The notes: a model not told the origin generated them from the sequence alone. Shown: positions 5,285 through 46,206, counted from the stretch's first letter. The stretch: 53,719 nucleotides of DNA from Candidatus Levyibacteriota bacterium (GCA_016180725.1 JACPAR010000015.1:1-53719), one strand, 5' to 3'. Program-made: numbers and translations.

Positions 5285-6121
5285 ATGAAAACAAAATTTA
5301 GTTTTATTTTTCTATTTGCTATTTGCTTTTTTACCCTGAGCGTAGTCGAAGGGCTATTTGCTATGAATGCGATAGCATTATCTCCAACGCCAACAGATTC
5401 CGACGCCCCAACACCTACAAAGACTGAAGTAAAAAAGGATACGAACACCAGTGAGGTTATTAATGATCTAAAAGAACGTATCGCATCAAGAGTAGCACAA
5501 TTAAAATTAGTTAAAAGAAAAGGAATTCTGGGAACCGTTACCGATATATCCGGCACTCAAATTACTCTCTCTGATCCACAAAACAATACCCGCTTTATAG
5601 ATGTAGACGAGCTAACGAAATTTTCCTCCCCTTCTACGTCTGCAAAAGAATCTTTCGGACTTTCCGATATTACAAAAGGAACCAAACTTGGTATTCTTGG
5701 CATTTATAATAAACAATCAGAAAGAATTCTTGCCAGATTTGTTAATGTTATTTCTTTGCCAACAATAATTAACGCAGCTGTTACTTCTGTTAACAGCGAT
5801 GATTTTAGTTTTAAAATAGTTGAAGAAGAAGGAAAATCAAATAGCGTTGATGTTGAGAAAATAACAAAAACATTTTCCTACAGCAAGGAAACAGACCTTG
5901 TAAAATCAGGATTTTCAAAAATAAAAGAAGGTCAGCACGTTATGATTATTGGATTTCCGGATATAAAAGATAAGGCAAGAATTGTTGCCTCCAGAATTAT
6001 TATTTTTGCAAACATTCCTAAAAATCCAAGAATAATTATTCCCCAAGAAGCATTAGATCCTCAAGACACTACAACTCCATCGACCGGCAGCGGCAAAAAA
6101 CTTACACCAATTACTCGCTAA
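5285..6121 (+). CDS. Secreted hypothetical protein with repeated OB-like beta domains
   Basis: Signal peptide, two repeats of GTVT..S...I.L...D..TK...SDI..G. Confidence 0.7.
   Translation: MKTKFSFIFLFAICFFTLSVVEGLFAMNAIALSPTPTDSDAPTPTKTEVKKDTNTSEVINDLKERIASRVAQLKLVKRKGILGTVTDISGTQITLSDPQNNTRFIDVDELTKFSSPSTSAKESFGLSDITKGTKLGILGIYNKQSERILARFVNVISLPTIINAAVTSVNSDDFSFKIVEEEGKSNSVDVEKITKTFSYSKETDLVKSGFSKIKEGQHVMIIGFPDIKDKARIVASRIIIFANIPKNPRIIIPQEALDPQDTTTPSTGSGKKLTPITR
5334..5353. repeat. Short palindromic element (CCCTGAG..CGAAGGG family) inside a signal peptide
   Basis: CCCTGAGCGTAGTCGAAGGG encodes TLSVVEG; reverse complement matches copies at 14117 and 37518. Confidence 0.7.
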
Positions 6122-6124
6122 AAA

Positions 6125-6859
6125 ATGCTTGAACAAATCGCAGAAAGAATAGGAAGAGTTATAAAACCACATTTTTATACACGTGTTGAAAATAGTATTA
6201 ACGCTTATAATCTTTATGTTTATAACATAGAAAACTTAGAACTTTTAAAAGGAAACCCGTGTGTTTTTGTTGCAAACCACATAAAGCCTGAAGGTGATAA
6301 AAATGTTTACCGTTCCTCAGGTTTAAGTCCCGATTCGTTTTTATTAAGAAGAGTAATTCTTAATACACTTGGTCAAGACGTGCATTTTGTTGCTCAATAC
6401 GATCCTAATGATCTTGGGACATTAAGAGATAAAATTCCAGGCGCACGCAGCGTACTTAAAAGATTTCATAAAGGCATGCTTCGGGGATTCGATGTTATTC
6501 CTGTGTCAAAAAGAACCGGTGCTGTAAATGTTGATTTTTTCAGAGACGCAAAAACAGCCGTTGCAAGAAAAGAATCGATATTCATTTACCCCTTTGAAGA
6601 TTGGATGGATGACTTTAATCCCGAACAAAAAATTGAGTCCGGAGCAGCTTACCTTGCGCAAAAGTTAGATGTCCCAATCTTTCCTATTTATGTCTTTGGT
6701 TGTAAAACATGGAACCCAAAGCCAAACCAAGAAACAACAATCGTATTTGGTAAACCATTCTCCGCAAAAGGGATAACGATTGAGCAAACAAATAGTAAAA
6801 TAAGAGAAGAACTAACAGCTTTACAAAATTTAGTAAGAGCTAAAAACCATGAACAATAG
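6125..6859 (+). CDS. Lysophospholipid acyltransferase family (PlsC-like), divergent
   Basis: VFVANH motif, IPVSKR, IFIYPFE, SGAAYLAQKLDVPIFPIYV, IVFGKP. Confidence 0.75.
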   Translation: MLEQIAERIGRVIKPHFYTRVENSINAYNLYVYNIENLELLKGNPCVFVANHIKPEGDKNVYRSSGLSPDSFLLRRVILNTLGQDVHFVAQYDPNDLGTLRDKIPGARSVLKRFHKGMLRGFDVIPVSKRTGAVNVDFFRDAKTAVARKESIFIYPFEDWMDDFNPEQKIESGAAYLAQKLDVPIFPIYVFGCKTWNPKPNQETTIVFGKPFSAKGITIEQTNSKIREELTALQNLVRAKNHEQ

Positions 6860-8051
6860 GCTTAACCAAACAAAAAATTTATTAACAAAAAATTCCCTGG
6901 ATGCAATTCTTGTCTCCTCTATTCCAAATATTACTTATCTCACAGGCTTTTCTAATTTTTCCAAAGACGAACGGGAAGCATTTGTTGTTATCGTGGCTCA
7001 ACCCCTGGCTCAACCCCAGGGGTTGACGCACAAAACCCCTGGGGTTACAGGGTATATTATTACCGATGGAAGGTATTCCGAAGCAGTACAGATTTCTGTC
7101 CCCCACTTTGAGCTTATCGAACGAAATGTCAATAATACTTTAAAACAGATCTTTTCATCTCTTTTAAAAAAACATCGCATAAAAACAGTTGGCATAGAAG
7201 AAAATAACATCTGTGTTGCAGAATACAAAGCATTCAAAAAACTTTTTCCCAGAATAAAACCGTTCGATATATCGTTGTTACGAACAATAAAGTCAAACGA
7301 TGAAATTAAAGCAATCGAAAAAGCTTGCGAGATTGGAGACAAAGCATTTGAGTACATATTGGAGCAGCTTAATGAAGATTTAACCGAAAAGGATGTAGCA
7401 TTCCTACTTGAACATTTTATTAAAAAACAAGGCGCTGACCTTTCGTTTCCAACAATAGTCGCCTTTGGTAAAAATTCTTCCATCCCCCACCACCAAACAA
7501 GTAATCAGCGCCTAGCGTCCAGCGGTCAGTTTGTGTTAATTGATTTTGGAGTAAAATTGAATAATTATTGCTCCGACATGACCCGCACGGTATTCTTTGG
7601 TAAAGCAACTGATGAACAAAAAAAGATGTACCAAACTGTGTTAGAAGCACAACAGAAAGCCATCGACTTTCTTACTCAACGTCATTCTGAGCGAAGCGAA
7701 GAATCCCCAAGGGCTTCTTTAAAGCGGAGTGGATCCTTCGGCCTGCGGCCTCAGGATGACGGTCGGATGAAAGCAAGTGACATTGACAAAGTTGCACGTG
7801 ATTACATTGTTAATAAAGGTTATCCAACCATTCCCCACTCCCTCGGCCATGGCATTGGCCTTGAAGTTCATGAAGCTCCACGGCTTTCCCCAAACTCCAG
7901 TGATGAACTTAGAGAAGGCATGGTGTTCTCGATAGAACCTGGAATTTATTTACCGGGCTTTGGAGGCGTGAGAATCGAAGATCTTATCGTTCTTGAAAAA
8001 TCCGGCCATAGATCTCTAACAAAATCCCCAAGAGGCATGATTATAATTTAA
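6849..8051 (+). CDS. Xaa-Pro aminopeptidase/dipeptidase (M24B)
   Basis: DGRY, IDFG..YCSDMTRT, HSLGHGIGLEVHE, IEPGIY, GVRIED; carries two palindromic inserts. Confidence 0.95.
   Translation: MNNRLNQTKNLLTKNSLDAILVSSIPNITYLTGFSNFSKDEREAFVVIVAQPLAQPQGLTHKTPGVTGYIITDGRYSEAVQISVPHFELIERNVNNTLKQIFSSLLKKHRIKTVGIEENNICVAEYKAFKKLFPRIKPFDISLLRTIKSNDEIKAIEKACEIGDKAFEYILEQLNEDLTEKDVAFLLEHFIKKQGADLSFPTIVAFGKNSSIPHHQTSNQRLASSGQFVLIDFGVKLNNYCSDMTRTVFFGKATDEQKKMYQTVLEAQQKAIDFLTQRHSERSEESPRASLKRSGSFGLRPQDDGRMKASDIDKVARDYIVNKGYPTIPHSLGHGIGLEVHEAPRLSPNSSDELREGMVFSIEPGIYLPGFGGVRIEDLIVLEKSGHRSLTKSPRGMIII
6993..7047. repeat. Intragenic palindromic element (CAACCCC/GGGGTTG family)
   Basis: TCAACCCC-A-GGGGTTGA plus AACCCCTGGGGTT; related GGCTCAACCCCAGGG at 52590. 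Confidence 0.7.
7680..7761. repeat. Intragenic REP-like palindrome (GTCATT..GAGCGAAGCGAA..ATGAC family)
   Basis: CGTCATTCTGAG...CTCAGGATGACG terminal inverted repeats; in-frame insert RHSERSEESPRASLKRSGSFGLRPQDDG. Confidence 0.85.
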
Positions 8052-8104
8052 AAGCTAAGCGATGTTTCGATAAGTTCATCTACTCTACCACTCTCAATGT
8101 ATTT

Positions 8105-11742: not shown

Positions 11743-11746
11743 AAGA

Positions 11747-12950: not shown

Positions 12951-12987
12951 ATACTTTTTTCCCACTTCGCATTAAGCTCCGCGGGAC

Positions 12988-13125
12988 GCATCCTCCCCTT
13001 TAAGGGCTGGGGTTAGCACCGTGCTCGAATGAAAGGTCCTTCGTCGCAAAGCTCCTCAGGACGACCTTCGGTCGGTTGCTGGGTGAGTCATCGGGCCAGT
13101 CCCCTCGTCACCACTCTTTATGTTT
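12988..13125 (-). ncRNA. SAM-I clan riboswitch (SAM-I or SAM-I/IV)
   Basis: CATAAAGAG..GAGGGGACTGGCCCGATGA..CAGCAACC..CACGGTGCTAA..GGATG; upstream of a Met operon. Confidence 0.9.
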
Positions 13126-13135
13126 AATTGTTATT

Positions 13136-13187: not shown

Positions 13188-13207
13188 ATTAATAATCGAA
13201 AACTAAA

Positions 13208-13459
13208 AGCGCCCAAGCGAAGTCACGATTCGCGATGCTGATCCCCAAAATGGGATACGGAAGTTGAACCGTAAAATCCAACAGTCGATGTCAGCCTAGC
13301 GGAGTCGGCCTGAGAGTCTTAAAGGAAAATACTTTAAGAAATAAGGATGGGACCGCGGGAGGTCCCGATTTTAGTTTTTAGGGGTTAGGTTTTAGGTATT
13401 AGAGAAACTAATAACTACAAACTAATAACTAATTACTAACTATCGCCTCTCGTTCCTTA
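13208..13459 (+). ncRNA. T-box riboswitch, probable His (CAC) specifier
   Basis: Stem III TCTTAAAG/CTTTAAGA; TAAGGA-[TGGGACC bulge]-GCGGGAGG pairs with CCTCTCGT-TCCTTA (13446-13459); short 5' stem with CAC in its loop; hisS downstream. Confidence 0.75.
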
Positions 13460-14109: not shown

Positions 14110-14205
14110 ACTTATCCTTCGACTTCGCTCAGGCCTTCGGCTCTGAGGCTCAGGTCTTCGACTCCGAAGACGCTCAGCCTCGAGGAGCTCGAAGAGATAA
14201 AGTTT
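14110..14205. repeat. Nested palindromic element cluster upstream of hisS
   Basis: CCTTCGACTTCGCTCAGG, GTCTTCG-ACTC-CGAAGAC, CTGAGGCTCAG, inside ACTTATC/GATAAAGT. Confidence 0.7.
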
Positions 14206-14215
14206 TATTAATTAC

Positions 14216-15481
14216 ATGAAAAATGTTGAACCAAAAACTTTAAAAGGATTTAGAGATTTTTTACCCAAGGAGACAAAAAAGAGGCAGTATGCAATTGATA
14301 CCTTGAAAAAGGTGTTTGAGTCCTATGGCTTTGAGCCACTAGAAACTCCGGCGCTTGAATACGAAGAGGTTTTACTTGGTAAATACGGCGAAGAAGGAGA
14401 TAAACTTATGTATCGGTTTGTGGATAACGGTGGCAGAAGAGTTGCATTGCGATATGACCAAACCGTTCCCCTTTCCCGCGTTGTTGCGCAGTACTCGCCT
14501 CGCGGCGGAGCGGGCCAGAATGAATTATCAATGCCGTTTAAAAGATATCAGATTCAACCAGTTTGGCGGGCGGAAAACACGCAAAAAGGAAGATTTAGGG
14601 AATTTTTACAGTGCGATGTAGATATCGTAGGCACTACCTCTCCCCTTTCTGATGCCGAGGTTATTGCTGTTGCTACAAACGCACTCAAAACCTTAGGTTT
14701 TAAAGATTATAAAGTTTTAATAAACGATAGAAATAATTTTTCTTACTTTCAGGAATCGATGAATCTATCCCAAGAACAAGTAATGGCAGTTATTCGCGCT
14801 ATTGATAAACTCAAAAAAATTGGCAGAGATGGAGTTATAAACGAACTTAAGGAAAAAGGATTTTCTTACGATCAGGCCGCAACTGTAATCGACAGCATCA
14901 GCAACATTAAACCAACAGAATATATTCTTGAGATTATGCAAAACCTTAAAAAAATGGGCATTAAGGAAGAGCGCATTCAATTCTATCCCACACTTGCTCG
15001 AGGCCTCGACTACTATACAGATTTAATTTTTGAAATTGAGATCGAAGGGTATACTGCCGGTTCTGTGTGCGGTGGAGGCAGATATGACAAACTCATTGCT
15101 ATGTTTTCCGACAAAGATATTCCTGCTGTTGGTTTTGCCTTTGGGTTTGACAGATTGATTGAGGCGATGGATGCCCTAAAGTTATTTCCAGATAATTTGG
15201 AAACAACCAAGGTGCTTGTAACTATTTTTTCTAAAGAACTAAAAGAAAAATCCATTGAAATCAGTTCTCGACTTCGCTCGAACAATATTAATACCGAAAT
15301 TTACCTAGACGAAAATGCAAAGCTAGAAAAACAACTAAAATACGCAGATCAAAAAGGAATCCCTTATGTTGTTGTTATTGGCCCTGAAGAAGCAGAAAAA
15401 AACCAAATAACCCTTAAAAACATGCAGACTAGAGAGCAAAAAACATTTAATCAAGAAGGTTTAGTCAAAGAACTAGCCTGA
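14216..15481 (+). CDS. hisS: Histidyl-tRNA synthetase
   Basis: KGFRDFLP, LRYDQT, GRFREFLQCD, RGLDYY, GGGRYD, GFAFGFDR, anticodon-binding C-terminus. Confidence 0.98.
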   Translation: MKNVEPKTLKGFRDFLPKETKKRQYAIDTLKKVFESYGFEPLETPALEYEEVLLGKYGEEGDKLMYRFVDNGGRRVALRYDQTVPLSRVVAQYSPRGGAGQNELSMPFKRYQIQPVWRAENTQKGRFREFLQCDVDIVGTTSPLSDAEVIAVATNALKTLGFKDYKVLINDRNNFSYFQESMNLSQEQVMAVIRAIDKLKKIGRDGVINELKEKGFSYDQAATVIDSISNIKPTEYILEIMQNLKKMGIKEERIQFYPTLARGLDYYTDLIFEIEIEGYTAGSVCGGGRYDKLIAMFSDKDIPAVGFAFGFDRLIEAMDALKLFPDNLETTKVLVTIFSKELKEKSIEISSRLRSNNINTEIYLDENAKLEKQLKYADQKGIPYVVVIGPEEAEKNQITLKNMQTREQKTFNQEGLVKELA

Positions 15482-17965: not shown

Positions 17966-19679
17966 AATCTTTGGAAGATTTTCTGCCGTCGATTTTGTCA
18001 AGCGTGTTTTCCTTGATCATCTTGGCCAGGTGCTTGCCGCCGATTATGTGCGGAATAACAACATAATCTGCACCTGCATCGTAAAGTTTTTTCGCGTCAT
18101 CAAAATCCTGAGCAACTACTATAATTTTTGCGCTTACCTGCCTTTCGCCCGCCTGACGGACGGACAGAGCAGGCAGGTTTTTTGTATGATGCAACCCGTC
18201 TATTAGAAGAATGTTGTCATCAACATCCGAAACAGTCGAGATAACAAGCTTTGCTCTATGCAACTGAAGCCTTTGCTGAATATCTATGTCTGAAATATCG
18301 CCAAATATGCTTATTACCCCTTTTTCTTTTAAATCTTTTATTATATCCGGATCGAAATCTACAACAATAACTTTTTCTCCCTCCTCCAAGAGAGCATCTA
18401 AAATACCACTTCCCATTCTATTTGCGCCTATTAAAGCAACATGATCGGAGAGATCATCTAAACCCTCCGATTCCTCTTTTCCCTCTCTTATTTTCCCTAT
18501 TTCAAAAATACCGAGATAATTTTTTGTATGTTTATAGAACGAATTAGCATGCGTACTCATGTAAGTTGAAGCAGCAAATGTAACAAGACCAACTGTAGTC
18601 ATTAAAATTACAATATCGTTAGTTACATGCCCTAATTTACTTCCTAAAAATATAATAATAAGCGAGAATTCCGAAATCTGAGCCATATGAATTCCTGTTA
18701 AAAGAGAGGTTCTTTTCCGGTGACCAAATAAACCCATGATTATCATAATAATCAGAGGCTTTCCTAATATTACAAAAACCGAGAATATTAGAGCCGGCAC
18801 CAGTACTTTTCCTAAATCTCCTGTTGCTGCCTCCATTCCCAAAACAACAAAAAAGATTGTAATAAAAAAATCCTGAAGCGCCCTTACTCTGGCAATAATT
18901 TGGAAATTTTCTTTACTGTTTGCCAAAGCGACTCCGGCTAAAAACCCTCCTATTTCGATAGAAAAGCCGATAATTTGTGAACTAACTAAAGCCGACAATC
19001 CCAAAACCCAGGCAAGAGAAAAAAGTATTAGTGTTTCTTCCGACCTTGCCAGCTTATCTAAGATTAACGGAAATACTTTCTTACTTAAGAAAATAACAAA
19101 GGCAAATAATAAAATTGCCTTTACAATAATTAAGGCTAAATGCTGGGTTAACAATAATTCTTGCGAACCCTTATTAAATACCGAAAGAAATATTAAAACA
19201 AATACAGCAAAAAAATCCTGTATTAAAAGCATGCCAATCGAGATTTTCCCATAAAGGCTTTGCAGATCTTTTTTAGCCGAGAGGAGCTTAACAATAATAA
19301 TTGTACTTGAAAATGAAAGAGCAACTGCAATATAAAAAGACGAAATTAACGAAAACCCAAGTAGAAAAGATATAAAATATCCTAAAGCTGCTGTTAAAAT
19401 AATCTGCGGTATGCCAATAAAAAAAGCGGTGGAGCCGATTGAACGAAGGTCTTTTAATTTTAATTCAAGACCTAGCATGAATAACAAAAGCGTAATGCCA
19501 AATTGAGCCATCATTCGCAAATCCGCATGATTTTGCAGTTGTAACTGGCCAAATGGCCCGATAATAATTCCGGTTAAGATGTAAGCTAAAATAGGAGGTT
19601 GCTTTAAAAACCTAAAAATAATAGAAATAAGTGCTGCAAAACAAATAATAACCGTTACTTCAAACAAAATCCCGGACAT
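17949..19679 (-). CDS. CPA2/Kef-type cation:proton antiporter with TrkA-N (RCK) domain
   Basis: About 13 TMs, [19 protein letters not shown]; C-terminal IGANRMG Rossmann fold. Confidence 0.92.
18136..18178. repeat. Intragenic palindromic element (ACCTGCCT..AGGCAGGT)
   Basis: Terminal inverted repeats; in-frame insert [14 protein letters not shown] in the RCK domain. Confidence 0.8.
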
Positions 19680-23063: not shown

Positions 23064-23143
23064 TAGCGTTTAGTTATCAGCGTCGCGTCAAACGCGACTG
23101 CCACGTTTGACGTGGCGTCTAACGTCTAGTTAACTGAACGCTA
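23064..23143. repeat. Branched palindromic element between rpsF and ssb
   Basis: Outer TAGCGTTTAGTTA/TAACTGAACGCTA; inner GTCGCG-TCAAA-CGCGAC and GCCACG-TTTGA-CGTGGC. Confidence 0.75.
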
Positions 23144-23154
23144 GTTGCTAGACG

Positions 23155-23433
23155 CTATTTCTTCCGAACCAATAGGTGTCTTAAGATATTATCCTGACCA
23201 AAGAGTCTTTTTTCAAAATCCGAAGGAATAGAACTCTCTGTCTCGAGTGCCAATAATTTATAATAACCGTTTGTTTCCCTTTTAATCGGAAAACTCAGGT
23301 TTTTTTTACCCCATTCTTCTTCGGAAGCAATTTTAACATCCTTTAACCATCCTTTAATGGTTTCCTGAAGTTTTTTTCGCTGATCCTCGGATAAAGACGA
23401 CTTTAAAATCAAAACTAATTCGTACAATCGCAT
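23155..23433 (-). CDS. rpsF: 30S ribosomal protein S6
   Basis: YELVLIL, WGKKNLSFPIK, GYY, ILRHL; rpsF-ssb-rpsR order. Confidence 0.96.
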   Translation of the reverse strand: MRLYELVLILKSSLSEDQRKKLQETIKGWLKDVKIASEEEWGKKNLSFPIKRETNGYYKLLALETESSIPSDFEKRLFGQDNILRHLLVRKK

Positions 23434-25785: not shown

Positions 25786-26943
25786 CTATGCGCCGATTTT
25801 AAACTCTACAACATCTCCATCTTGTATAACATAATCCCTTCCTTCAAGACGGGCTTTGCCGACTTCACGGGAACCCTTCCAACCTTTGCTTTGAACAAAA
25901 TCTTGATATGAAACTACTTCTGCTTTAATAAACTTTTTTACGAAGTCTGTATGAATAGTGCCGGAGGCCATGAGGGCTGTTGAACCAGCCCGAATGGTCC
26001 AAGCTCTCACTTCTTTTTCCCCCGCTGTTAAAAATGAAATTAAACCTAATTTTTCGTAGGCTTTTTGAATTAATCTCTCAAGTCCTGATTGCTGTAATCC
26101 TAAATCCAAAAGATATTGTTTTTGTTCATCGGTTGATAATTCCGAAAGCTCTGATTCAATCTTTGCGCAAATGGCAATAATGTCATTGCGAGGAGTTGAA
26201 GACGACGAAGCAATCTCTTGAGACTGCTTCGCTTCGCTCGCAGTGACAGGATTAAGAAGCTCTGTGTATTTTTTAATAATTTCTGGGATTTTTTCTTCTG
26301 TATAATCTTCTTCCGAAACGTTGATTACCACAAGTTCCGGCTTTGCGGAAAGTAAAAATAAATCTCTCACCGCTTCTTTCTCTTCGTCAGTCAACTGAAC
26401 TTCTCTCGCCGGTATTCCCTTATCAAGATTGTCTATCAATCGCTGTATCACTTCTGCATAATTCTTAATTCTTGATTCATGCTTCTTTACATTAACATTT
26501 TCAAGCGTTGATAAATCTGCAAGTATTAGCTCTGCTTCAATAGTTTCTAGATCGGATTTTGGATCAACTGATCCCTCTTTAATCACGTTCTCATCCGCAA
26601 ACGCTCTAACAACATGAGCAATAATACTAACTTCCCGAATATGAGATAAAAATTTATTTCCCAACCCCGCGCCTTCTGATGCACCTTTAACCAATCCGGC
26701 AATATCGAGGAATTGAACGGTCGCAGGCTTTATCGGCGGAAATCCGCTCATTTTTTCCTCATCCTTTGTTATCTGCGCTAATCTTTCCAAACGTTCGTCC
26801 GGAACAGGAACTACCCCCACATTTGGTTCGATGGTAGCAAACGGATAATTTGCCGCCAACGCCTGCTGTTTTTTTAAAAGCGCATTAAACAAAGTAGACT
26901 TTCCGACATTGGGCAAGCCAATAATTCCAACCGAAATATTCAT
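25786..26943 (-). CDS. ychF: Redox-regulated ATPase YchF
   Basis: GLPNVGKSTLFN, ANYPFATIEPN, DIAGLVKGA, TGS domain. Confidence 0.97.
   Translation of the reverse strand: MNISVGIIGLPNVGKSTLFNALLKKQQALAANYPFATIEPNVGVVPVPDERLERLAQITKDEEKMSGFPPIKPATVQFLDIAGLVKGASEGAGLGNKFLSHIREVSIIAHVVRAFADENVIKEGSVDPKSDLETIEAELILADLSTLENVNVKKHESRIKNYAEVIQRLIDNLDKGIPAREVQLTDEEKEAVRDLFLLSAKPELVVINVSEEDYTEEKIPEIIKKYTELLNPVTASEAKQSQEIASSSSTPRNDIIAICAKIESELSELSTDEQKQYLLDLGLQQSGLERLIQKAYEKLGLISFLTAGEKEVRAWTIRAGSTALMASGTIHTDFVKKFIKAEVVSYQDFVQSKGWKGSREVGKARLEGRDYVIQDGDVVEFKIGA
26181..26248. repeat. Intragenic REP-like palindrome in ychF
   Basis: TGTCATTGCGAG...CTCGCAGTGACA; in-frame insert VTASEAKQSQEIASSSSTPRND. Confidence 0.85.
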
Positions 26944-31908: not shown

Positions 31909-32254
31909 GATTAGTTTTATCTTAACATAAATAACTCAGGTTTGAAAAGATAAAATGGCGTACTCCGTTTAGGTCGTTATATCAACCTAAAGACGGTTCT
32001 GGTTTACCATCGTTTGGAGCCATTGTACCAAATTGCTCGAACTTATTTTACCAAAAATTACTAAAAATTGACAGCTCCGCATTGTATTAGCTCGCCTCGC
32101 TTCGCTCGGCCTTCGCCACGTCTGACGTGGCTTCGCTTTGACTTTGCCGGAAAAATTTTCGTGTCCTTTCTCTTTTTTATTTCCTGCTTGTGCTAAGTCT
32201 AATATATTGAGCAAATATTATTGACTATATTTTTATACTCGATATAGTTTAGGC

Positions 32255-34266: not shown

Positions 34267-34273
34267 TTTTTAT

Positions 34274-35113: not shown

Positions 35114-35365
35114 ATTTTTAAAGCAATAGAATTTATTTTAATTATGACAAATTCGCCACAGTTAAAATCCAGTTTCTCCTGCTGCTATTATAGACGTAGA
35201 CTATAACAAGCTACGCTTATTATACAGGATTTTAGATCCGTAGGATCGCAAGATTTTCTTATTCAAACTAAATCAAAATGGCTATTGCATTTGTACGATC
35301 AGTTTGGTTCAATTAAGGTAGTCATAAGTTTTGATTTTTGACATTTGAGTTTTGAATTTTTTTAT

Positions 35366-38300
35366 ATGTATGTTATGGAATATCTTCAGAAATTTAGACA
35401 AGGTAAGCCCGACAGCTCACAGCTCACAGCTCACAGCTCACAGCTCACAGCTCACAGCTCACAGCTCACAGCTCACAGCTCACAGCTCACAGCTCACAGC
35501 TCACACTAAAGTTTAGGCGTCAATTCCCAAAAATCAAGAGGCAAACCCTCACTGTCCTCTTAATTATTTCTTTATTAATATCTCAACTCACTTCTCTTTT
35601 TGTTCCCTCAGTTTATGCCGCAAGTTCACCTTGGAGCCAAACTAATTGGAATGGTGGGAGTGGGCAGACTGCTTGGAGTGATACAACCAAGTATTCTTCT
35701 GGCTCAAGTGTTGATGCCACTACTACTTCTGGACAAGTAACATTGACTAATACAGAAAAATTTTCTAATACAGGGTTTGAATCAAACCTGACAGGGTGGA
35801 CCGTATCAGGCACCACCAATGATTTAACTTTGCAGCCTGATGGAGCTACTGGAATTGATACCTGGATATTATCAGTTGGCACAGGTGGTAGCGCTGGGTA
35901 TCAGAATACCAATAACGGTGCGCAGAATGTTTTTCAAGTGGGTCTCACAGTATCAGGCACAGATATTGAACGTGGACTTATAAAATTAGATCTTTCTTCT
36001 ATACCCTCAACAGCGAAGGTTTCATCTGCCACTCTTTCAATATATGCTACTAGTCAAGTAGCATCTGGAAATGCTCAAACATTTTCTGTTTACAGAATGC
36101 TCCAAAGTTGGGTGGAAGGAACAGGGAATTTTAGCACTACTGGGGATGGAACCACATGGTTAACCTATAATGGTGTCAGCAATTGGCAAACAGCAGGAGG
36201 GTCAGGGTCTAACGATCGAGAGACTACTGCTATCGGTTCTAGCGCATTCGCAAGTTCTGAAACTTCTGGTGAGTTCAAGAATTTCAGCTTGACAGCAAGT
36301 GCAGTTCAAGAATGGATTGATGGAACGATGACTAATAATGGGGTTATGATTAAGAGTGAGGAAACAGGAACAAATAGATTTACATTTGCTGCAAGTGATA
36401 ACGCTACTGCTGCTAACCGGCCTAAGTTAGCAATAAGCTACTATAACTACTCACGAGATACATCCATCAAATATGGAGGAAGTAATGCTTCGGCACAAAT
36501 AATCACACCTTCAGGTGGTACTAATAATTTTCTTCAAACTGTCAATGTGGGAGATACAAATACTTACAATTTAGTTTCTTATGCTTATACAGATGGTAGT
36601 GCCATAACTTCTTCTGATGTAGAGCTTTTTTATAACGGTTCAACGATTGCAACAACATATACTTCTGTTGGTTCTGGTTGGTATAAACTTACTGGAACTT
36701 TAACAGGAGCAAATGCGTCAAGGGTTTATGGAGTTCAAGTAAAAGCAAATAAAACTGTTTATGTAGACAACTTTAGTTTGAATAATTATGCTTCTTCCGG
36801 AACTTTGACCTCATCTATTTTTGACAGCGAATTTACAGCAGGTGCAGCTTGGGGTACCCTAACTTATACGGCAACTACTCCAACTAATACAACAGTTTCA
36901 GTAAAAATGAGGACTTCTAATTCATCTTCAATGTCTGGGGCTACAGCTTTTGGTTCATGTACCGCAATAACAAGTGGTTCCGACATTTCTTCTAACACTT
37001 GCGTAGCTGATGGGCAAAGATATATTCAATATCTCCTGACATTATCGAATAGCAGTACAGAAGTTACACCAACTTTTTCAGATTTATCACTAACATTTGC
37101 AACCTATGATACTGACGCACCATCTATCTCTTTAACAGCTTTAACCCCTGACCCAAATTCTGATAATACGCCAACTCTATCGGGAACAGCTACTGACTTA
37201 ATAGGCACTGTTTCCAATGTCCAGTTTCAGATGGATGCAACTTCTGGCTCCTGGACTGCTTGTACAGCGGATGACGGCAGTTTTGATGAAGTGACAGAGA
37301 CATTTACATGTACTCCTTCTGCATTATCTGACGGTAGTCATACGATGTATGTCAGGGCTACCGACAGTAACAGCAATACGACTGCTTCGGGAAGTGAATC
37401 TTCTGACACTTTTACCATTGATGTGACAGCCCCGGCTTCTTTTGACCTGGATTCTCCTGGCCATGAGAGTTACACTACCAATGAGCGACCCACTTTTAAG
37501 TGGAAGGCAACCACCGACCCTTCGGCAGGCTCAGGGCAAGTGCCTTCAGGTTTATCCAGCTATACCCTGGAAGTAGACAATGGGGATACGGGAGACTTTA
37601 GTATTACGGGTATCCCTACCAGCAGGACTACAGATTATGACACCAATAAATATCTTGTCCATTATGATAACTTTTCAGATTCAGATTCCAGTAATAATTA
37701 CATCTCAATTTATACTAAATCACACAGTGACTGGAGTTCCTCTGAAAACTATGGCAAGTTAAAAGAAGGCTCAAGATCCTGGAAGATTAAAGCCATTGAT
37801 GCCGCAGGTAATGAAAGGTCAGAGGGCAGGACTGTGATTGTTGATTTAACAGGCCCGACATTATCCTCCCTTTCCTCATCTGGCTCGGCAGGCAGCAAAG
37901 ACGGTTATTTTCTGGTGACCAACCAAAAGCCAAGCCTAACAGGCACTATTACTGATAATTATTCTCCTGATAAGGTAGAAATCTCCATCTACAAGGAAAA
38001 CTACTTTCTGGGTGCCATCACCTCCAAAGAGCTGTTTACTTCCATTACTTATTCACTCTCCAACAGCAGTAATAATAAATCCCTCTCTTTTTCCATTCCT
38101 GTCCCTGATTCCCTGGACTTCGGCAGTTACGAAGTAAATATTAAAGGACAAGACAAAGCAGGCAATAAATCCGGCGCTTCTACCATATATTTTAAGGTTT
38201 TGACTGCCCGGCAGGCAAAAGAACTTTTGCAGGGTAAACTTTCAGAAAAAGAAAAGAAAACAATTCAGGAGAGATCACAGGTATCTCTGCCGGAATTGGA

Positions 38301-39243
38301 GAAAAAAGCAGTTTTAAGACGGGAAAAAGAAGCAGCGGAATTTGATAAGTTAATTACCCCATTCTCCCAAACATTCTCTGTCATCCCCAACCTGATTGGG
38401 AATCTATATAAATCATCTACTGCGGGACTCACGATGACAGGAAACGCCATTAGCCATGGTTTCCTCGAAGTGACAAATGGTATAGGTAAAGGTTACAACA
38501 ACCTAGCTCAAAAAGCGCCTGGGTTGGTAAAAAATACCATGTTAGCTTTAGAAAATGGAGTAAATACGGTTAGCTCAACTATCAGTAACACTAACCAAGT
38601 AGCGCTTAATACTCTTAATAAATCTCAAGGGAAGTTAGAGAATAAAATCAGCAAGAGTTCTAGAGAAACAGCACAAATTTTTAATTCTCAATTATCAAAT
38701 GTTAAAAACATAGCAGGCGGCACCACTAAAGTCATTGCGAGCGCAAGCGAAGCAATCTCTAATTCGTTGGCCAGATCGCAGGAAGAAACCCAAAAACAAA
38801 TCGCAAAAACTCACCAGAATACAAGCGATGCTATTAAGGATAAAGGTCAAAGAATAAGTAAAGGAATAAATCTTGCTTTCCGCTCTTTCCAAAAACCAGT
38901 CAATGATACAACTGGTTTCCTGGACAGAACTAAAGTATGGTTTCTAACTTTTGGATCAATAGTTATAGATCCAAATCCAACAACTATTTCTGGTGTTGCT
39001 ATTGATGAGTTAGGAAAAGATTATGCAGTTGTTTCCTGGAAAACAAACCATTATGCTTGGGGTAAAGTTAATTATGGTAAAGATTTAACTTATGGGAAAG
39101 AAGTACTTTTAACCAAAAGAGAGAAAGTCCATGTTGCCCGCTTAACAGGGCTTAAACCAGGGGAAAAATATTATTTTGAAGTAATGTCCCAGAACAAAAA
39201 TTATGCTTATGACGCCTACTATAGTTTTGAGACTAAAAAGTAG
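35366..39243 (+). CDS. Large secreted/surface protein (DNRLRE-like, Ig-like, C-terminal FN3-like domains); start is out of frame at the repeat tract
   Basis: Frame open from 35407, signal peptide KRQTLTVLLIISLLISQL..VYA; RGLIKLDLSSIP..VSSATLSIY, Ser/Thr-rich beta repeats, VSWKTN..GKVNYG..LTGLKPG..YYF. Confidence 0.85.
35412..35502 (+). repeat. Heptanucleotide tandem repeat (ACAGCTC)13
   Basis: 13 perfect units, located between the ATG and the signal-peptide coding region. Confidence 0.95.
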
Positions 39244-39262: not shown

Positions 39263-40114
39263 ATGCCAAACGAATTTATACGCAATCTAAATATAAATCA
39301 AGAGAATAAGACTCCTGGAAGGTGGCCCGCTTCGACTCAGCGAGGCGAGCCAAAAGGACTCCTTCCAGGTGGCGTTGCCATGCCGGTTATCACAATCCTG
39401 GTATATTTTCTGACTAAAAATCCTTTAACTGGCAACCTAAAATTACAGTTCACGCTTTTAAGCATCATAGCTTTGTTAGTTTTTGGGTATTTTCTTAAGA
39501 AAAAAGGGCTATCTGTTATTCAAAATGTAGAATTTAATTATCTTCTAACAGTTGCTGTGCTGTTTTTGATTGCCTCCACCGGCTGGTTTTTCTCTCCCTT
39601 TTTCTTTGTTTTATACCTTTGGGCAATATTTTTGGCTTTTATCTTTTCACCTACGGCTTCCTTAGGTTTTATTATTACCCTGGTAATCCTTTTTTCTTTT
39701 AATATTGGACAGGTAGACTTAGCTTATGACTTTATGATTGTCTTATCATTACTCACCACAATCCCGTTAAGTCTATATCTTAGAAAAGAATATCTTCGGC
39801 TTAAAGAATCGGAAAAAGAAATTTTGGTACTGCAAAAACAGAAAGAAAATTTTAACAGCATAGTTGAGGAAGTGTTAGCCAATAAAATCAGCAGTATTGC
39901 AGCGAATTTAAGACAGCCGATTAATGATATTAAGCAGTTAGCTTTTAGAATGGGAGATATTAAGGAAAAACAAAAATTAGAAACTGACAGGGAAAGAATA
40001 CTTGCTTCCTCAGAAGAAGCCCTAAGGGTTCTAAAAGAATTTGAAGAACAATCAACAGGAAAGAAATTAGTAGTTAACCCCGGCTCTCCTCAGGCGGCTC
40101 CAGGAACTTCTTAA
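39263..40114 (+). CDS. Membrane protein with degenerate HisKA-like C-terminus
   Basis: About 5 TMs, coiled coil, SIAANLRQPIN at the H-box position without His; no HATPase domain. Confidence 0.6.
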   Translation: MPNEFIRNLNINQENKTPGRWPASTQRGEPKGLLPGGVAMPVITILVYFLTKNPLTGNLKLQFTLLSIIALLVFGYFLKKKGLSVIQNVEFNYLLTVAVLFLIASTGWFFSPFFFVLYLWAIFLAFIFSPTASLGFIITLVILFSFNIGQVDLAYDFMIVLSLLTTIPLSLYLRKEYLRLKESEKEILVLQKQKENFNSIVEEVLANKISSIAANLRQPINDIKQLAFRMGDIKEKQKLETDRERILASSEEALRVLKEFEEQSTGKKLVVNPGSPQAAPGTS

Positions 40115-40463: not shown

Positions 40464-40531
40464 CTGGTTTTAGAATAGCAAATAACCTTGGATATTGCAA
40501 TTGTTTTTTTCTTTAAGAATTTAACAAAAAA

Positions 40532-43201: not shown

Positions 43202-43338
43202 AAGTTAATAGCTGCTACCATTTCTAGTTTATCATTATTTTCGTTATCATGTTGCCAATCTACTTTGAATTTCTGGTGGTTTCGAGTGGACAATTCTCAC
43301 TAAAGCATCCCTTTTAGACAATGTGATAATATAGGGGT

Positions 43339-44646: not shown

Positions 44647-44719
44647 TTACTACAAGAGCTTTATCCGCAACCCTAGATGAACAATTTTTAGGACTTTTTT
44701 AAGGTAAGGGTTTGTCCAT

Positions 44720-45040
44720 TTAATAAATGGGGGTACCAGCATTTTTGTCGTTTTGAATCCGCCCCAGTAAGATAAACAGTTCAGTTATCGCTTCGACATC
44801 ATCTTCACCAACAACATTAAACTTTTCCTGACAGGCTTCGGAGAATAACTCCTCTTTCTTAAGATTACAAATAGTAGCCCGTGCTTCTGCTGCTGATACT
44901 TCGGGCATTAGTTGCGATGGAGTTATCGGTATTTTTTCTCCTCTTGATTGTTGTTGCCCCAAGAATAAAACTGCCAGAACAATGATAATTATTATGGCAA
45001 TAATAAGACCTGGGAGTGCAAATCTTTTTTGTTTTTTTAT
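44720..45040 (-). CDS. Small membrane-anchored protein, start codon reads ATA
   Basis: Frame extends to 45040: IKKQKRFALPGLIIAIIIIIVLAVLFLGQQQ; ATAA overlap with the upstream stop. Confidence 0.5.
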   Translation of the reverse strand: MKKQKRFALPGLIIAIIIIIVLAVLFLGQQQSRGEKIPITPSQLMPEVSAAEARATICNLKKEELFSEACQEKFNVVGEDDVEAITELFILLGRIQNDKNAGTPIY

Positions 45041-46206
45041 TTTCTTCCCTTACTCCTTTTCTTCAAAAATAAAACAGTGCCACCAATAATTGCTATTAAA
45101 ACTAAACTCACTATACCGACTTTAACAAGTGACAGTTTTTGGGCAATAACCATTACTCCCGGCTTATCACCTTCTGGTTTAACACTAACTGTTTTCCCAT
45201 CTTTGGTTTTGACTTCTACCTCACCTTCATAGACAACAACTGCTACCAATTTTTTATCGGTGTCTTTCAAAACCCAAAAATGGGTTCTGCTGACTGTTAC
45301 CCCCAACCAGCCTGCATCTACACCAAATTTATTTTCCGTAGGGTTGTTATTTCTTACTCTTACCTCTATTTCTCCTTCACTCAATTCTACAATGTGAGAG
45401 GTAACCCCATTGGCTTTAACCGGTTCTTGAAATTTAATCTTCTCCCAGTTACTAGATTGCATCACCGCCCCCGAATCCTCACCCCAAGAATATTTCTTGA
45501 TATTCTGCATTCCGGGAATGACAACAAACACAGGTTCGCCTTGAGGAACAGGCCGTATCCAAGCGTCCGCTTCAACCTTATCATTGATCCGCCCTTTTTT
45601 GTCAGCCTCCTTCATAGCCTCTTCGTACCACCATGGTTTTGTCTCCGCTTCCTTTTGACTAATACTTTTTCTGCCGAACAGGTTAAGAAAGCCTCCTTCC
45701 AGAGATTCTTCCAAATCACCGCTTGCGAAAAATTCCGAAACTTCAGCTACTTCTCTTAATCTCAACCAAGTTTGATAGGGATTAATGCCCAAAAACTCCA
45801 ACCATGACGGTCCCTCTTTTTGGCTTGGTGACGAAGTTTCCTTTTTTGAATCCAAAGTTGGGAGATTTTTGCTCTGGCCTTCATCTACTTCGGAAACTGT
45901 AGGAGTTTTTGGCTTAGCCGACAAACATGCTTTATAATCAGCCTCTACCTGTTTTTCACATGCGTCTTTAGATTGAGTACAGGTCTTATAGCACGCGCTT
46001 ACATCTTTGGTTTGATCTACGCATGGATAATAACATTTAGTCCATCCTGTCAAACAATTATATGAGGCGCGGGCACGGATTTTGTCACATTCCTCTATTG
46101 TCTGGGCATTGGCTTCCGGAGACAAGAAAAGCACAGCAGTTAAAATAAGCAGTACGGGCAGGATGCCTGCCCGCCAAAACTTTAGCGTAGACGGGAATTT
46201 TTTCAT
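45037..46206 (-). CDS. Secreted Cys-rich protein with FecR-like beta domain and C-terminal TM anchor
   Basis: Signal peptide, 8 Cys, THFWV..VYEGEVEV, TM + KKR tail; paralog of 47400-48443. Confidence 0.75.
   Translation of the reverse strand: MKKFPSTLKFWRAGILPVLLILTAVLFLSPEANAQTIEECDKIRARASYNCLTGWTKCYYPCVDQTKDVSACYKTCTQSKDACEKQVEADYKACLSAKPKTPTVSEVDEGQSKNLPTLDSKKETSSPSQKEGPSWLEFLGINPYQTWLRLREVAEVSEFFASGDLEESLEGGFLNLFGRKSISQKEAETKPWWYEEAMKEADKKGRINDKVEADAWIRPVPQGEPVFVVIPGMQNIKKYSWGEDSGAVMQSSNWEKIKFQEPVKANGVTSHIVELSEGEIEVRVRNNNPTENKFGVDAGWLGVTVSRTHFWVLKDTDKKLVAVVVYEGEVEVKTKDGKTVSVKPEGDKPGVMVIAQKLSLVKVGIVSLVLIAIIGGTVLFLKKRSKGRK

What the first reader, a model, noticed from the sequence alone, without database searches (positions are those of the whole stretch)
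5334..46194. Several palindromic element families inserted in frame into proteins
Seen in sequence: GC-rich hairpins sit inside AT-rich CDSs and add foreign peptides. Examples: 5334-5353 (TLSVVEG), 6993-7047 and 7680-7761 (peptidase), 14495-14515 (HisS SPRGGAG), 18136-18178 (Kef), 26181-26248 (YchF), 37518-37536 (PSAGSG) and 38731-38758 (VIASASEAIS) in the surface protein, 39311-39372, and 46165-46194. Some families also occur intergenically (14117, 32090, 52590). Established: this parallels Rickettsia palindromic elements and REPs mobilised in trans. Inference: an active non-autonomous system remodelling even essential proteins; no mobiliser is visible in the window.
Basis: partly seen in the sequence, partly recalled or inferred. 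Interest (0 to 1): 0.75.

Follow-up and report, generated by a model that had tools for sequence, protein, structure and literature searches.

The report
Tiny repeat elements translated inside genes
Short GC-rich repeats of several known kinds have been inserted, in frame, into loops of ordinary and essential proteins of a tiny groundwater bacterium; this has been seen before in other bacteria, so it is a new example, not a new principle.

Summary
The observation largely holds. Alignment with related genomes shows lineage-specific in-frame inserts at 7 of the 10 intragenic sites: HisS, Kef, YchF, the M24 peptidase (two sites), a signal peptide, and one site in the surface protein. The other three could not be verified. 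Only 6 of the 10 fold as hairpins, and 2 have no second copy in the genome.

The inserts belong to at least three known kinds:
- CGTC-tagged hairpin units arranged as inverted dimers. The same units flank a 93-aa GIY-YIG (Ssn-like) gene elsewhere in this genome and in relatives.
- REP-like hairpins resembling those that flank eight RAYT-like Y1-transposase genes.
- GC cores of about 20 nt that normally sit inside 7-base tandem repeats (SDR-like).

So candidate mobilisers exist, but outside the window. Ongoing activity is not shown.

Three further points:
- Different element families hit the same protein loops in different genera.
- Palindromes inside two genes are kept by compensatory changes.
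- The CGTC units here fail the published SRM search pattern.

The genome is a Levybacteria-like Patescibacteria (CPR) MAG. This scan has found the same class before in other genomes and in this one. I found no paper describing it for CPR. Verdict: real, a new variant of a known kind, moderate interest.

The parts
5334..5353 (+). 20-nt GC core (family B, CCCTGAGCGnAGTCGAAGGG) between CTATTTG heptamer units in the signal-peptide coding region of a conserved secreted protein. Adds TLSVVEG.
   Evidence: Family B has 23 copies at up to 2 mismatches. The insert is absent in 10 of 11 orthologues and present in G006 as TLSPVEG. It is not a hairpin (z -0.16).
6993..7047 (+). Double palindrome (AACCCCAGGGGTT, a 9-nt spacer, AACCCCTGGGGTT, plus a 12-nt local duplication) in the Creatinase_N domain of the M24 peptidase. 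About 15 aa.
   Evidence: Hairpin z -3.74. Absent in 11 of the 12 relatives that cover the site. G007 has the same element with both palindromes changed compensatorily. Each variant occurs only in that gene. It shares 15-17 nt with family D, which has 5 copies.
7680..7761 (+). Inverted dimer of CGTC-tagged units (stems ATTCT/AGAAT and ATCCT/AGGAT) in a variable loop of the M24 catalytic domain. Adds about 28 aa (RHSERSEESPRASLKRSGSFGLRPQDD).
   Evidence: (z -2.31). The Pfam match to Peptidase_M24 is split into two stretches. Relatives carry other elements in the same loop. Independent-study contigs bridge it with 0 differences.
14495..14515 (+). 21-nt GC core (family C, TCGCCTCGCGGCGrAGCGGGC) in HisS. 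Adds SPRGGAG.
   Evidence: Found in 0 of 11 orthologues. There is a 7-residue gap against solved HisRS 6nhi. Family C has 11 copies, 20 of 21 nt identical to 7 of them. Not a hairpin (z +0.43). Bridged by independent contigs.
18136..18178 (-). 42/43-nt palindrome (ACCTGCC...GGCAGGT) in the TrkA_N domain of the Kef-type antiporter. Adds [14 protein letters not shown].
   Evidence: Found in 0 of 13 orthologues. Hairpin z -2.92. No other copy in the genome.
26181..26248 (-). Inverted dimer of CGTC-type units (TGTCATTGCGAG...GCAATCTC / GAGACTGC...CTCGCAGTGACA) in YchF. Adds about 23 aa (NPVTASEAKQSQEIASSSSTPRN).
   Evidence: (z -4.74). G016 carries a different CGTC dimer at the same codon position. 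The left unit has 40-80 times the flanking depth in the metagenome contigs, with many different flanks.
37518..37538 (+). 21-nt GC core (CCCTTCGGCAGGCTCAGGGCA) in the surface protein. Adds PSAGSGQ.
   Evidence: Absent in 3 of 3 orthologues, two of which carry PS[IL]GSGQ about 20 residues further on. One near copy elsewhere at C20:16105. Not a hairpin.
38731..38759 (+). Single CGTC-type unit (GTCATTGCGAGCGCAAGCGAAGCAATCTC) in the surface protein, read as VIASASEAIS.
   Evidence: About 93% identical to 3 other units. Coding signal on both sides. Insert status not verifiable because the region aligns poorly. No significant fold on its own.
39311..39372 (+). Hairpin element (CCTGGAAGGTGGCC, a GC module, then GGACTCCTTCCAGG) in the N-terminal tail of a membrane protein ORF.
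   Evidence: z -2.92. Its arm matches, at 2 mismatches, the CCACCTCCCAGGTG hairpins that flank a RAYT-like gene, and resembles CDS copies at C36, C24 and C12. Orthologues and the paralogue do not resolve whether it is an insert.
46155..46194 (-). Palindrome GGGCAGGATGCCTGCCC and adjoining GC-rich stretch in the N-terminal (signal-peptide) codons 5-17 of a FecR-like protein.
   Evidence: Hairpin z -2.61. No other copy. Too few orthologues to test.
14112..14200 (.). Intergenic composite of family-B-type modules enclosed by a TTATC...GATAA stem, upstream of hisS.
   Evidence: 28 blastn-short hits. z -3.92. Raised contig depth in the metagenomes.
32085..32145 (.). Intergenic repeat: a GC module plus the hairpin GCCACGTCTGACGTGGC.
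   Evidence: The hairpin matches 4 other places, 16 of 17 nt identical. The module matches C13:773.
52586..52615 (.). Intergenic family-D copy (GAGGCTCAACCCCAGGGC).
23073..23160 (.). Intergenic twin-hairpin repeat downstream of ssb.
   Evidence: 97% identical over 61 nt to C30:19646-19706, with further partial copies. z -4.30.

Best explanation
The window belongs to a small (about 0.77 Mb assembled, 36.6% GC) Levybacteria-like Patescibacteria genome. It is littered with several kinds of very small, GC-rich, mostly hairpin-forming, non-coding repeats. Copies that land in frame, without stops, in tolerant loops or signal peptides persist and are most likely translated as extra loop residues.

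Three kinds are involved:
1. CGTC/TGTC-tagged units. Each has a 5-bp AT-started outer stem such as ATTGC/GCAAT, a GAG internal loop and a variable inner hairpin. They are arranged as inverted dimers with the tags outward (YchF, M24 site 2, and one single unit in the surface protein). The same arrangement brackets a 93-aa single-domain GIY-YIG gene. The dimers therefore look like gene-less derivatives of a unit-ssn-unit cassette, recognised as single-stranded hairpins by an Ssn-type nuclease.
2. REP-like hairpins related to those flanking RAYT-like Y1 transposase genes (39311, and the inserts in M24 site 2 of relatives).
3. GC cores of about 20 nt that normally nest inside 7-base tandem repeats, like cyanobacterial SDRs (5334, HisS, 37518).

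Shown: insert status, family membership, the architecture around the GIY-YIG and Y1 genes, the lack of target duplications, recurrence at the same loops, and compensatory upkeep of palindromes.

Inferred: mobilisation in trans by these enzymes, a single-strand (replication-linked) copy route, and translation of the inserts.
For: Inserts against orthologues.

Families above chance: 414 loci against 12-36 in shuffles; 24 exact CGTCATTGCGAG in G000, 0 in the reversed-pattern control.

CGTC units:
- 68 units in 43 loci.
- 22 of 23 two-unit loci are '+-', that is, tags outward.
- Of 27 dimers, 26 have no target duplication. The base before GTC is C in 16 and T in 9 of the 26 dimers that have an upstream base.
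- The own GIY-YIG ORF C36:6227-6505 passes the Pfam cut-off. It is flanked by units at 6175 (+) and 6513-6543 (-).
- 10 of 11 loci of close homologues in relatives show the same GTCAT...ATC / GAT...ATGAC bracket, with stems that vary by homologue.
- Chenal et al. 2025 (PMC11893778, sections 6, 7, 10, 12, 17 read) show that such proteins cut single-stranded DNA next to their flanking hairpin repeats.

RAYT-like genes: 8 PF01797 matches over the cut-off, each with flanking hairpins that recur elsewhere, also in CDSs.

GC cores in heptamer arrays: 14 loci. There are 126 period-7 arrays; period 7 does not appear among the commonest periods listed for any of 3 shuffles.

Selection filter: of 103 larger repeat loci, 52 are intergenic although 88% of the genome is coding. 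26 are inside CDSs with coding signal on both sides.

The peptides differ by frame and orientation (VIARSEATKQS, RHSERSEES, SLRG..., EIASS...RND, LAMT). The peptide is therefore a by-product.

Recurrent hits: at least three element types sit in M24 site 2 across genera, and two different CGTC dimers sit at the same YchF codon.

Compensatory changes:
- M24 site 1 has AACCCCWGGGGTT twice in G000 against AACACCWGGTGTT twice in G007.
- The YchF right unit has ACTGC/GCAGT against the family's ATTGC/GCAAT.

Real DNA: independent-study contigs carry the inserts.
Against: - No direct sign of mobility. No empty-site allele or footprint of this strain appeared in the contigs laid, and contigs cannot show absence.
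- The published SRM search pattern finds 1 match against 1.05 expected.
- Small GIY-YIG paralogues occur in 31 of 31 related genomes whatever their count of the exact motif. G006 has the closest homologues (73% identity) and 0 exact CGTCATTGCGAG.
- The RAYT-like proteins score below NCBIfam's cut-off for REP-associated tyrosine transposase (52.8 against 80 bits). They have no solved relative by sequence.
- 4 of the 10 sites are not hairpins. 2 of the 10 have no second copy.
- How a 21-nt core could be copied is unknown.
- My 'inside CDS' census rests on ORFs and codon statistics, not on annotation. 18 loci are ambiguous.
Confidence: 0.72

Rival explanations
1. The repeats are not transposed as units. 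They arise and spread by local repair and replication processes: template switching at hairpins, slippage in heptamer arrays, and gene conversion from other copies. The GIY-YIG and Y1 genes are merely neighbours or targets of the same repeats.
For: No target duplications. Modules are mixed and nested: family-B cores occur as inner hairpins of CGTC units, and cores sit inside heptamer arrays. There is a 12-nt local duplication in M24 site 1. Both palindromes of M24 site 1 changed in concert, which fits self-templated correction. Orthologues have pure heptamer arrays where G000 and G006 have array plus core. There is no simple link between the motif count and the nearest GIY-YIG homologue.
Against: Whole dimers of 52-105 nt with fixed tag orientation recur at unrelated sites. 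The same bracket surrounds GIY-YIG genes in 10 of 11 loci of relatives. Enzymes of that family cut next to such repeats in vitro (PMC11893778, section 10). The unit has many different flanks in the community contigs.
Confidence: 0.15
2. The intragenic hairpins are kept because they do something for the host. They may act as recognition sites that limit recombination with incoming single-stranded DNA, as proposed for NTS/SsnA in Neisseria. Or they may act as RNA or DNA structures that tune expression of the genes they sit in.
For: Palindromy is preserved by compensatory changes inside coding sequence, at the cost of two amino-acid changes in one copy. The same loops are re-occupied in different genera. 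Chenal et al. report that NTS-flanked DNA transforms less well (PMC11893778, section 12).
Against: The repeats are strongly depleted from coding DNA (52 of 103 loci lie in the 12% that is non-coding). Peptides and frames vary. Most orthologues do without the inserts. In N. meningitidis only 2% of NTS lie in genes (PMC11893778, section 12). Concerted change can come from hairpin self-correction without any function.
Confidence: 0.1
3. The stretches are ancestral parts of the proteins lost in relatives, or assembly or binning artefacts of a metagenome-assembled genome.
For: The genome is a fragmented MAG (44 contigs, 80.5% complete). Several contigs end inside the repeats. Two sites (18136, 46165) have no second copy.
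Against: The inserts match multi-copy families elsewhere in the genome. They are absent from 0/11, 0/13 and 0/29 orthologues. Contigs of an independent study carry them unchanged.
Confidence: 0.03

Closest known systems
CGTC-tagged REPs (Di Nocera, De Gregorio and Rocco 2013, PMC3733652; abstract and sections 6 and 15 read). According to that paper they include Neisseria dRS3 and Rickettsia RPE-4 and RPE-6.
   Same: Unpaired CGTC/TGTC tag, stem starting with A-T pairs, mostly inverted dimers, no target duplication. Some copies are translated inside genes, including tRNA synthetase genes. Inserts of dimers encode 20-30 residues.
   Different: The outer stem here is only 5 bp, followed by a GAG internal loop and a variable inner hairpin of very different lengths. 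The described form has an 8-9 bp stem with a 4-5 nt loop. The tail is CTC/CCC, not CCA. The host is a CPR bacterium, a group not among the phyla listed there.
Ssn-related motifs and SsnA GIY-YIG single-strand nucleases (Chenal et al. 2025, PMC11893778; sections 6, 7, 10, 12, 17 read)
   Same: A small single-domain GIY-YIG gene bracketed by inverted, tagged hairpin repeats that are also dispersed in the genome. The repeat stem varies with the homologue.
   Different: The published degenerate SRM pattern does not match these units. About a fifth of loci lie inside genes with coding signal on both sides, against 2% reported for N. meningitidis. cd10448 membership and nuclease activity were not tested.
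Rickettsia palindromic elements (RPE-1 to RPE-10). I recall Ogata et al. 2000/2002 and did not read them. They are mentioned in PMC3733652 sections 6 and 15.
   Same: Palindromic repeats inserted in frame into many genes, including essential ones, of a reduced genome.
   Different: Different sequences, smaller units (20-105 nt), and several unrelated families at once. No sequence comparison with RPEs was made here.
REP / REPIN with RAYT Y1 transposases (Nunvar 2010 PMC2817692, Bertels and Rainey 2011 PMC3116915, Bertels 2017 PMC5581495; only listings or abstracts seen, plus one passage of PMC3116915)
   Same: Y1 (HUH) transposase-like genes flanked by their own hairpins, which also occur elsewhere in the genome.
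   Different: Eight divergent paralogues in 0.77 Mb, where RAYTs are typically single-copy (abstract of PMC5581495). They score below the NCBIfam RAYT cut-off. Few copies per hairpin family (3-14). A copy of the hairpin lies inside at least three of the transposase-like genes themselves (the two others not checked for this).
Small dispersed repeats (SDR) nested in heptamer tandem repeats of Nostoc/Anabaena (Elhai et al. 2008, PMC2527708; not held, so known to me only from recall and from earlier notes of this scan). Also heptamer SSRs (Rehm et al. 2015, PMC4692102; passages read).
   Same: Inserts of about 20-30 nt sit between units of 7-base tandem arrays, also inside genes. Period-7 repeats are in excess.
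   Different: A different phylum and different sequences. The HisS and surface-protein cores lie outside any heptamer array. I could not check the paper's definitions.

Membership tests
CGTC-tagged REPs (Di Nocera 2013) | Unpaired terminal CGTC motif (TGTC or CCTC allowed) | tested here: met
   The base before GTC is C in 16 and T in 9 of the 26 dimers with an upstream base.
CGTC-tagged REPs (Di Nocera 2013) | Stem of 8-9 bp that begins with complementary A-T pairs, and a loop of 4-5 nt | tested here: not met
   The stems do begin with AT (ATTGC 47, ATCGC 8, ATCCT 7, ATTCT 6). But the outer stem is 5 bp, followed by an internal loop and a variable inner hairpin.
CGTC-tagged REPs (Di Nocera 2013) | Mostly organised as inverted dimers | tested here: met
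   23 of 43 loci hold two units, and 22 of the 23 have the tags outward.
Ssn-related motifs / Ssn (Chenal 2025) | Match to the degenerate SRM search sequence, enriched over shuffled genomes | tested here: not met
   1 match against a mean of 1.05 in 20 shuffles.
Ssn-related motifs / Ssn (Chenal 2025) | Repeats flank a small single-domain GIY-YIG gene on both sides | tested here: met
   Own gene C36:6227-6505. 10 of 11 loci of close homologues in relatives.
Ssn-related motifs / Ssn (Chenal 2025) | Nuclease belongs to CDD cd10448 and cuts single-stranded DNA beside the motif | not testable with these tools
   No CDD library is on hand. Pfam GIY-YIG is over the cut-off, NCBIfam gives nothing, and no solved relative was found by sequence.
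Rickettsia palindromic elements | Palindromic dispersed repeat inserted in frame in protein-coding genes and tolerated | tested here: met
Rickettsia palindromic elements | Sequence similarity to RPE-1 to RPE-10 | not tested
   No RPE sequences were fetched. The only link is the statement in PMC3733652 that RPE-4 and RPE-6 are CGTC elements.
REP / RAYT | Y1 transposase gene of the RAYT family | tested here: inconclusive
   PF01797 is over the cut-off for all 8. The NCBIfam REP_Tyr_transpos model is the best hit but below its cut-off (30.7-52.8 against 80 bits for the 3 tested).
REP / RAYT | Gene flanked by inverted copies of a hairpin that is dispersed in the genome | tested here: met
   Flanks. 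Copies elsewhere: AGCCTCGCAAGG 14 hits, CCACCTCCCAGGTG type 11, TTCCGATCCCATATCG 5, ATCCACCCCAAGGGTGGA 3.
REP / RAYT | GTAG tag on the hairpins; about one RAYT per genome | tested here: not met
   Eight paralogues. The GTAG tag was not examined systematically.
SDR-type cores in heptamer arrays (Elhai 2008; definition recalled, paper not held) | Short core nested between direct units of a 7-base tandem repeat | tested here: met
   14 loci, 13 of them with direct units on both sides. Site 5334 lies between CTATTTG units. The HisS and 37518 cores do not lie in arrays.

The most novel reading that the evidence does not exclude
In Levybacteria-like CPR bacteria the hairpins inside genes are not mere tolerated junk. 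Particular protein loops are preferred landing sites that are re-occupied by different element families in different genera, and the palindromes are then actively kept by compensatory change. This would point to a role of the DNA or RNA structure itself. One possibility is recognition tags for Ssn- or RAYT-type single-strand nucleases that govern recombination with imported DNA in these competence-dependent, reduced genomes.
Probability: 0.1. Interest if true: 0.75.

Novelty: new variant of a known kind. Interest (0 to 1): 0.42.

Why it matters
It adds the ultra-small CPR bacteria to the lineages in which REP-, SRM- and SDR-type mini-repeats reshape proteins. One 0.77-Mb genome holds three such systems side by side, together with their candidate enzymes.

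Practically, these inserts inflate and distort protein families. They generate recurrent spurious peptides in databases, break metagenome assemblies at contig ends, and can mislead alignments and structure predictions for CPR proteins.

The bracketed GIY-YIG genes, with stems that vary from homologue to homologue, are a ready source of new Ssn-type single-strand nuclease and site pairs.

The recurrent hits at the same loops and the compensatory upkeep of palindromes give a testable handle on a wider question: are such repeats only selfish, or do they have a function?

Tried and rejected
- Rfam at gathering thresholds and ARAGORN found nothing in the window, so the repeats are not known RNA genes.
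- A plain GC-island scan did not separate the elements from ordinary coding GC peaks.
- The published SRM pattern found nothing above chance.
- A presence/absence link between the exact motif and a GIY-YIG homologue across 31 genomes was uninformative, because all 31 have small GIY-YIG paralogues.
- Target-site duplications were sought and not found.
- Expression: no RNA holder is listed for the YchF stretch.
- Laying contigs of 4 runs gave no empty-site form of this strain. Joints at 7006/7051, 6979/7056 and 14133/14216 have short sides or other letters and probably come from relatives or other loci.
- Structure prediction of YchF with its insert (alignment A1) was asked for three times and never started because the shared queue was full. 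The inserts are therefore not mapped on a 3-D model. Only gaps against solved homologues 1jal (YchF) and 6nhi (HisRS) were seen.
- Elhai et al. 2008 could not be read. Its supplements and those of Di Nocera 2013 and Chenal 2025 were not consulted and may list related elements.
- Searches for CPR or Patescibacteria together with REP, RAYT or palindromic repeats returned no relevant paper.
- Identical dimers on several contigs (C8, C11, C38, C44; C19 and C20) share longer flanks. I did not count them as evidence of recent transposition.

Full report
**What the window is.** The window is contig C9 of a 768,608-base, 44-contig genome with 36.6% GC, estimated 80.5% complete. Related YchF loci come from records titled Candidatus Levyibacteriota, Woesebacteria, Blackburnbacteria and 'Patescibacteria group'. 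Runs that hold the DNA are groundwater metagenomes. It is therefore a Levybacteria-like CPR bacterium.

**Are the ten intragenic stretches inserts?** I aligned each protein with orthologues from up to 30 related genomes, whose HisS identity is 51-74%.
- HisS carries an exact 7-residue insert (SPRGGAG, 21 nt) found in 0 of 11 relatives. It also appears as a gap against solved HisRS 6nhi.
- Kef carries a 14-residue insert in its TrkA_N domain, found in 0 of 13.
- YchF carries about 23 extra residues, found in 0 of 13 and 0 of 29 informative orthologues (one truncated row dropped). They are seen as gaps against solved YchF 1jal.
- M24 peptidase site 1 (about 15 residues) is absent in 11 of the 12 relatives that cover it and shared, in variant form, with G007.
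- M24 site 2 lies in a loop that differs in almost every relative.
- The TLSVVEG stretch sits in the signal peptide of a conserved secreted protein. It is absent in 10 of 11 relatives, and G006 has TLSPVEG at the same place.
- PSAGSGQ in the surface protein is absent in 3 of 3 orthologues.
- Three sites could not be tested. VIASASEAIS lies in a poorly aligned region. For 39311 and 46165, which lie in N-terminal tails, the orthologues do not reach or are too few.

**Are they palindromic and repeated?** Six of the ten fold clearly better than shuffles as single-stranded DNA: 6993, 7680, 18136, 26181, 39311 and 46150. Their z-scores run from -2.3 to -4.7, and at most 4 of 200 shuffles fold as well. 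The other four fold no better than chance: 5334, 14495, 37518 and 38731. Eight have relatives elsewhere in the genome. 18136 and 46165 have none.

Genome-wide, 346 GC-rich 12-mers occur four or more times and mark 414 loci, against 3-11 words and 12-36 loci in three shuffles.

Of the 103 loci with at least 18 covered bases, 52 are intergenic and 7 straddle gene ends. A further 26 lie inside ORFs with coding signal on both sides, and 18 lie inside ORFs but are ambiguous. My ORF model% of the genome coding. The repeats are thus strongly depleted from genes, yet present in a couple of dozen of them. This census rests on ORFs and codon statistics and is approximate.

**Kind 1: CGTC-tagged units.** The commonest family reads (C/T)GTCATTGCGAG, then a variable inner hairpin, then G..GCAATCTC.
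- With four stem variants (ATTGC 47, ATCGC 8, ATCCT 7, ATTCT 6) I count 68 units in 43 loci. A few of the shortest are probably chance.
- 23 loci hold two units, and 22 of those have the tags pointing outward.
- Of 27 dimers of 52-105 nt, 26 have no target-site duplication. The base before GTC is C in 16 and T in 9.
- The YchF insert and M24 site 2 are such dimers. VIASASEAIS is a single unit.
- These features match the CGTC-tagged REP superfamily of Di Nocera et al. (tag, AT-started stem, inverted dimers). Per that paper the superfamily includes Neisseria dRS3 and Rickettsia RPE-4 and RPE-6, and has translated intragenic copies, some in tRNA synthetases (PMC3733652, sections 6 and 15).
- The units differ in having a 5-bp outer stem plus a variable inner hairpin, in place of an 8-9-bp stem with a 4-5-nt loop.

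**The candidate enzyme for kind 1.**
- The genome has a 93-residue single-domain GIY-YIG ORF (C36:6227-6505, Pfam over cut-off). It has a unit just upstream in forward orientation and one just downstream in reverse.
- In relatives, 10 of 11 loci of close homologues show the same bracket. The stems differ from homologue to homologue (ATTGC, ATTCT/ATCCT, ATGCT and others).
- This is the architecture Chenal et al. 2025 describe for SsnA nucleases, which cut single-stranded DNA next to their flanking 'Ssn-related motifs' (PMC11893778, sections 7, 10, 12).
- The dimers inside genes have the same outward-tag arrangement and look like the cassette without its gene.
- Caveats. The published degenerate SRM pattern gives 1 match against 1.05 expected. 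All 31 related genomes have small GIY-YIG paralogues, and the exact 12-mer count (G000 24, G016 16, G005 8, G010 4, others 2 or fewer) does not track the closest homologue. cd10448 membership and activity could not be tested.

**Kind 2: REP-like hairpins and RAYT-like genes.**
- Eight ORFs of 217-262 residues match Pfam Y1_Tnp over its cut-off.
- Their best NCBIfam model is 'REP-associated tyrosine transposase', but below its cut-off.
- In the flanks I read, each has a hairpin next to it, on both sides in at least five. For six of the eight I searched the hairpin: it recurs elsewhere in the genome, also inside genes, and in at least three cases inside the transposase-like gene itself.
- The element at 39311 matches the CCACCTCCCAGGTG-type flank at two mismatches.
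- The same type (CACCTCGGA...TCCGAGGTG) fills M24 site 2 in four relatives and another YchF loop in G020.

**Kind 3: GC cores in heptamer arrays.**
- The HisS core (family C, 11 copies) usually sits between direct AAAGTTC-type 7-base repeats (8 of 11 copies by my reading).
- The 5334 core sits between CTATTTG units. G007 and G002 have pure (TTTACTA)n and (CTTACTA)n arrays at that place in the same gene.
- The genome has 126 period-7 arrays at TRF score 36 or more. Period 7 is not among the commonest periods listed for any of three shuffles.
- 14 loci have the form array-GC core-array.
- Earlier notes of this scan compare this with the small dispersed repeats of Nostoc (Elhai et al. 2008). I could not read that paper.
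- The excess of heptamer repeats in bacteria is noted by Rehm et al. 2015 (passages).

- First, the same loops are hit repeatedly. At the YchF site, G016 carries a different, classical CGTC dimer (TGTCATTCCCGCGAAGGCGGGAATCC...) at the same codon position, and L124 keeps what looks like a decayed right end. At M24 site 2, G000 and G006 carry different CGTC dimers and four relatives carry a kind-2 element. The surface-protein orthologues of G009 and G016 carry PS[IL]GSGQ about 20 residues away from where G000 has PSAGSGQ. Whether this reflects target preference or only tolerant loops is open.
- Second, palindromes are maintained. M24 site 1 has two copies of AACCCCWGGGGTT in G000 and two of AACACCWGGTGTT in G007. 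That is four concerted changes, two of them changing amino acids, and each variant is found only in that gene. The right unit of the YchF dimer has ACTGC/GCAGT where the family has ATTGC/GCAAT. Hairpin self-correction or selection on structure could explain this.

**Reality and activity.**
- Contigs from an independent study (X5, X6) cover M24 site 2 and the HisS insert with no differences.
- A 7.5-kb contig of X1 spans the YchF insert.
- The left YchF unit has 40-80 times the depth of its flanks, with dozens of different flanks. The unit is therefore shared by many contexts in the community.
- No empty-site form of this strain was seen, but contigs cannot show absence. 'Active' therefore remains unproven.

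**Comparison and verdict.** In-frame palindromic repeats in reduced genomes (RPEs), intragenic REPs, Ssn-bracketed hairpin repeats and SDR-like cores are all known. This scan has already reported the same class in other Patescibacteria and Omnitrophota genomes and in another piece of this genome. I found no paper describing them for CPR.

What is new is modest:
- a variant unit architecture that the published SRM pattern misses;
- three systems with candidate enzymes in one 0.77-Mb genome;
- recurrent occupation of the same loops;
- compensatory upkeep of palindromes inside genes.

I rate it a real feature, a new variant of a known kind, of moderate interest.

Noticed in passing
window 35412-35505: A perfect (ACAGCTC) x 13.4 heptamer microsatellite lies about 240 nt upstream of the 1166-aa surface-protein gene. 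Its position and perfection suggest a slippage-prone (phase-variable) control region.
   Followed up: no
window 12985-13126 (- strand): A full-length match to the SAM riboswitch (RF00162; 41.5 bits, gathering 44.4, E 6e-8) lies just upstream of the Cys/Met PLP enzyme and metE-like operon. It was missed at gathering threshold.
   Followed up: partly
window 13203-13375 (+ strand): A weak T-box leader match (31 bits against gathering 93) lies upstream of ORF 13576-14091 and hisS. It is followed by two inverted heptamer arrays at 13369-13439.
   Followed up: no
genome contigs C19:4068-4814, C41:6750-7484, C3, C11 (two), C30, C38, C43: There are eight divergent RAYT-like Y1-transposase paralogues in a 0.77-Mb genome. 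At least three carry a copy of their own flanking hairpin inside the coding sequence at the same position, after the conserved KYIHKQA.
   Followed up: partly
window 5300-5370; L096, L092, L100 (orthologues): The hydrophobic core of the signal peptide of a conserved secreted protein is encoded by 7-base (or 15-base) tandem repeats in several genera. Examples are (TTTACTA)n in G007 and (CTTACTA)n in G002. Gain or loss of one unit would shift the frame.
   Followed up: partly
whole genome; window 13369-13439 and 35329-35360: AT-rich period-7 tandem repeats are in strong excess: 126 arrays at TRF score 36 or more, the commonest unit being AAAGTTC. Period 7 does not appear among the commonest periods listed for any of 3 shuffles. 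Sixteen pairs of inverted arrays flank AT-rich spacers between genes.
   Followed up: partly
window 30711-35113: A cluster of Bro-N, KilA-N and PIF1/UvrD-like helicase genes, together with unknown ORFs, looks like a remnant of a phage or other mobile element.
   Followed up: no
window 14133-14216 in runs X1 and X3: A contig at about the genome's own depth joins 14133 to 14216 with 22 other letters between. This may be a shorter variant of the intergenic composite repeat upstream of hisS, or another locus.
   Followed up: partly
L111 (G009) and L112 (G016), surface-protein orthologues: Both carry PS[IL]GSGQ, the same kind of GC-core peptide as PSAGSGQ in the window, but about 20 residues further along the protein.
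   Followed up: no
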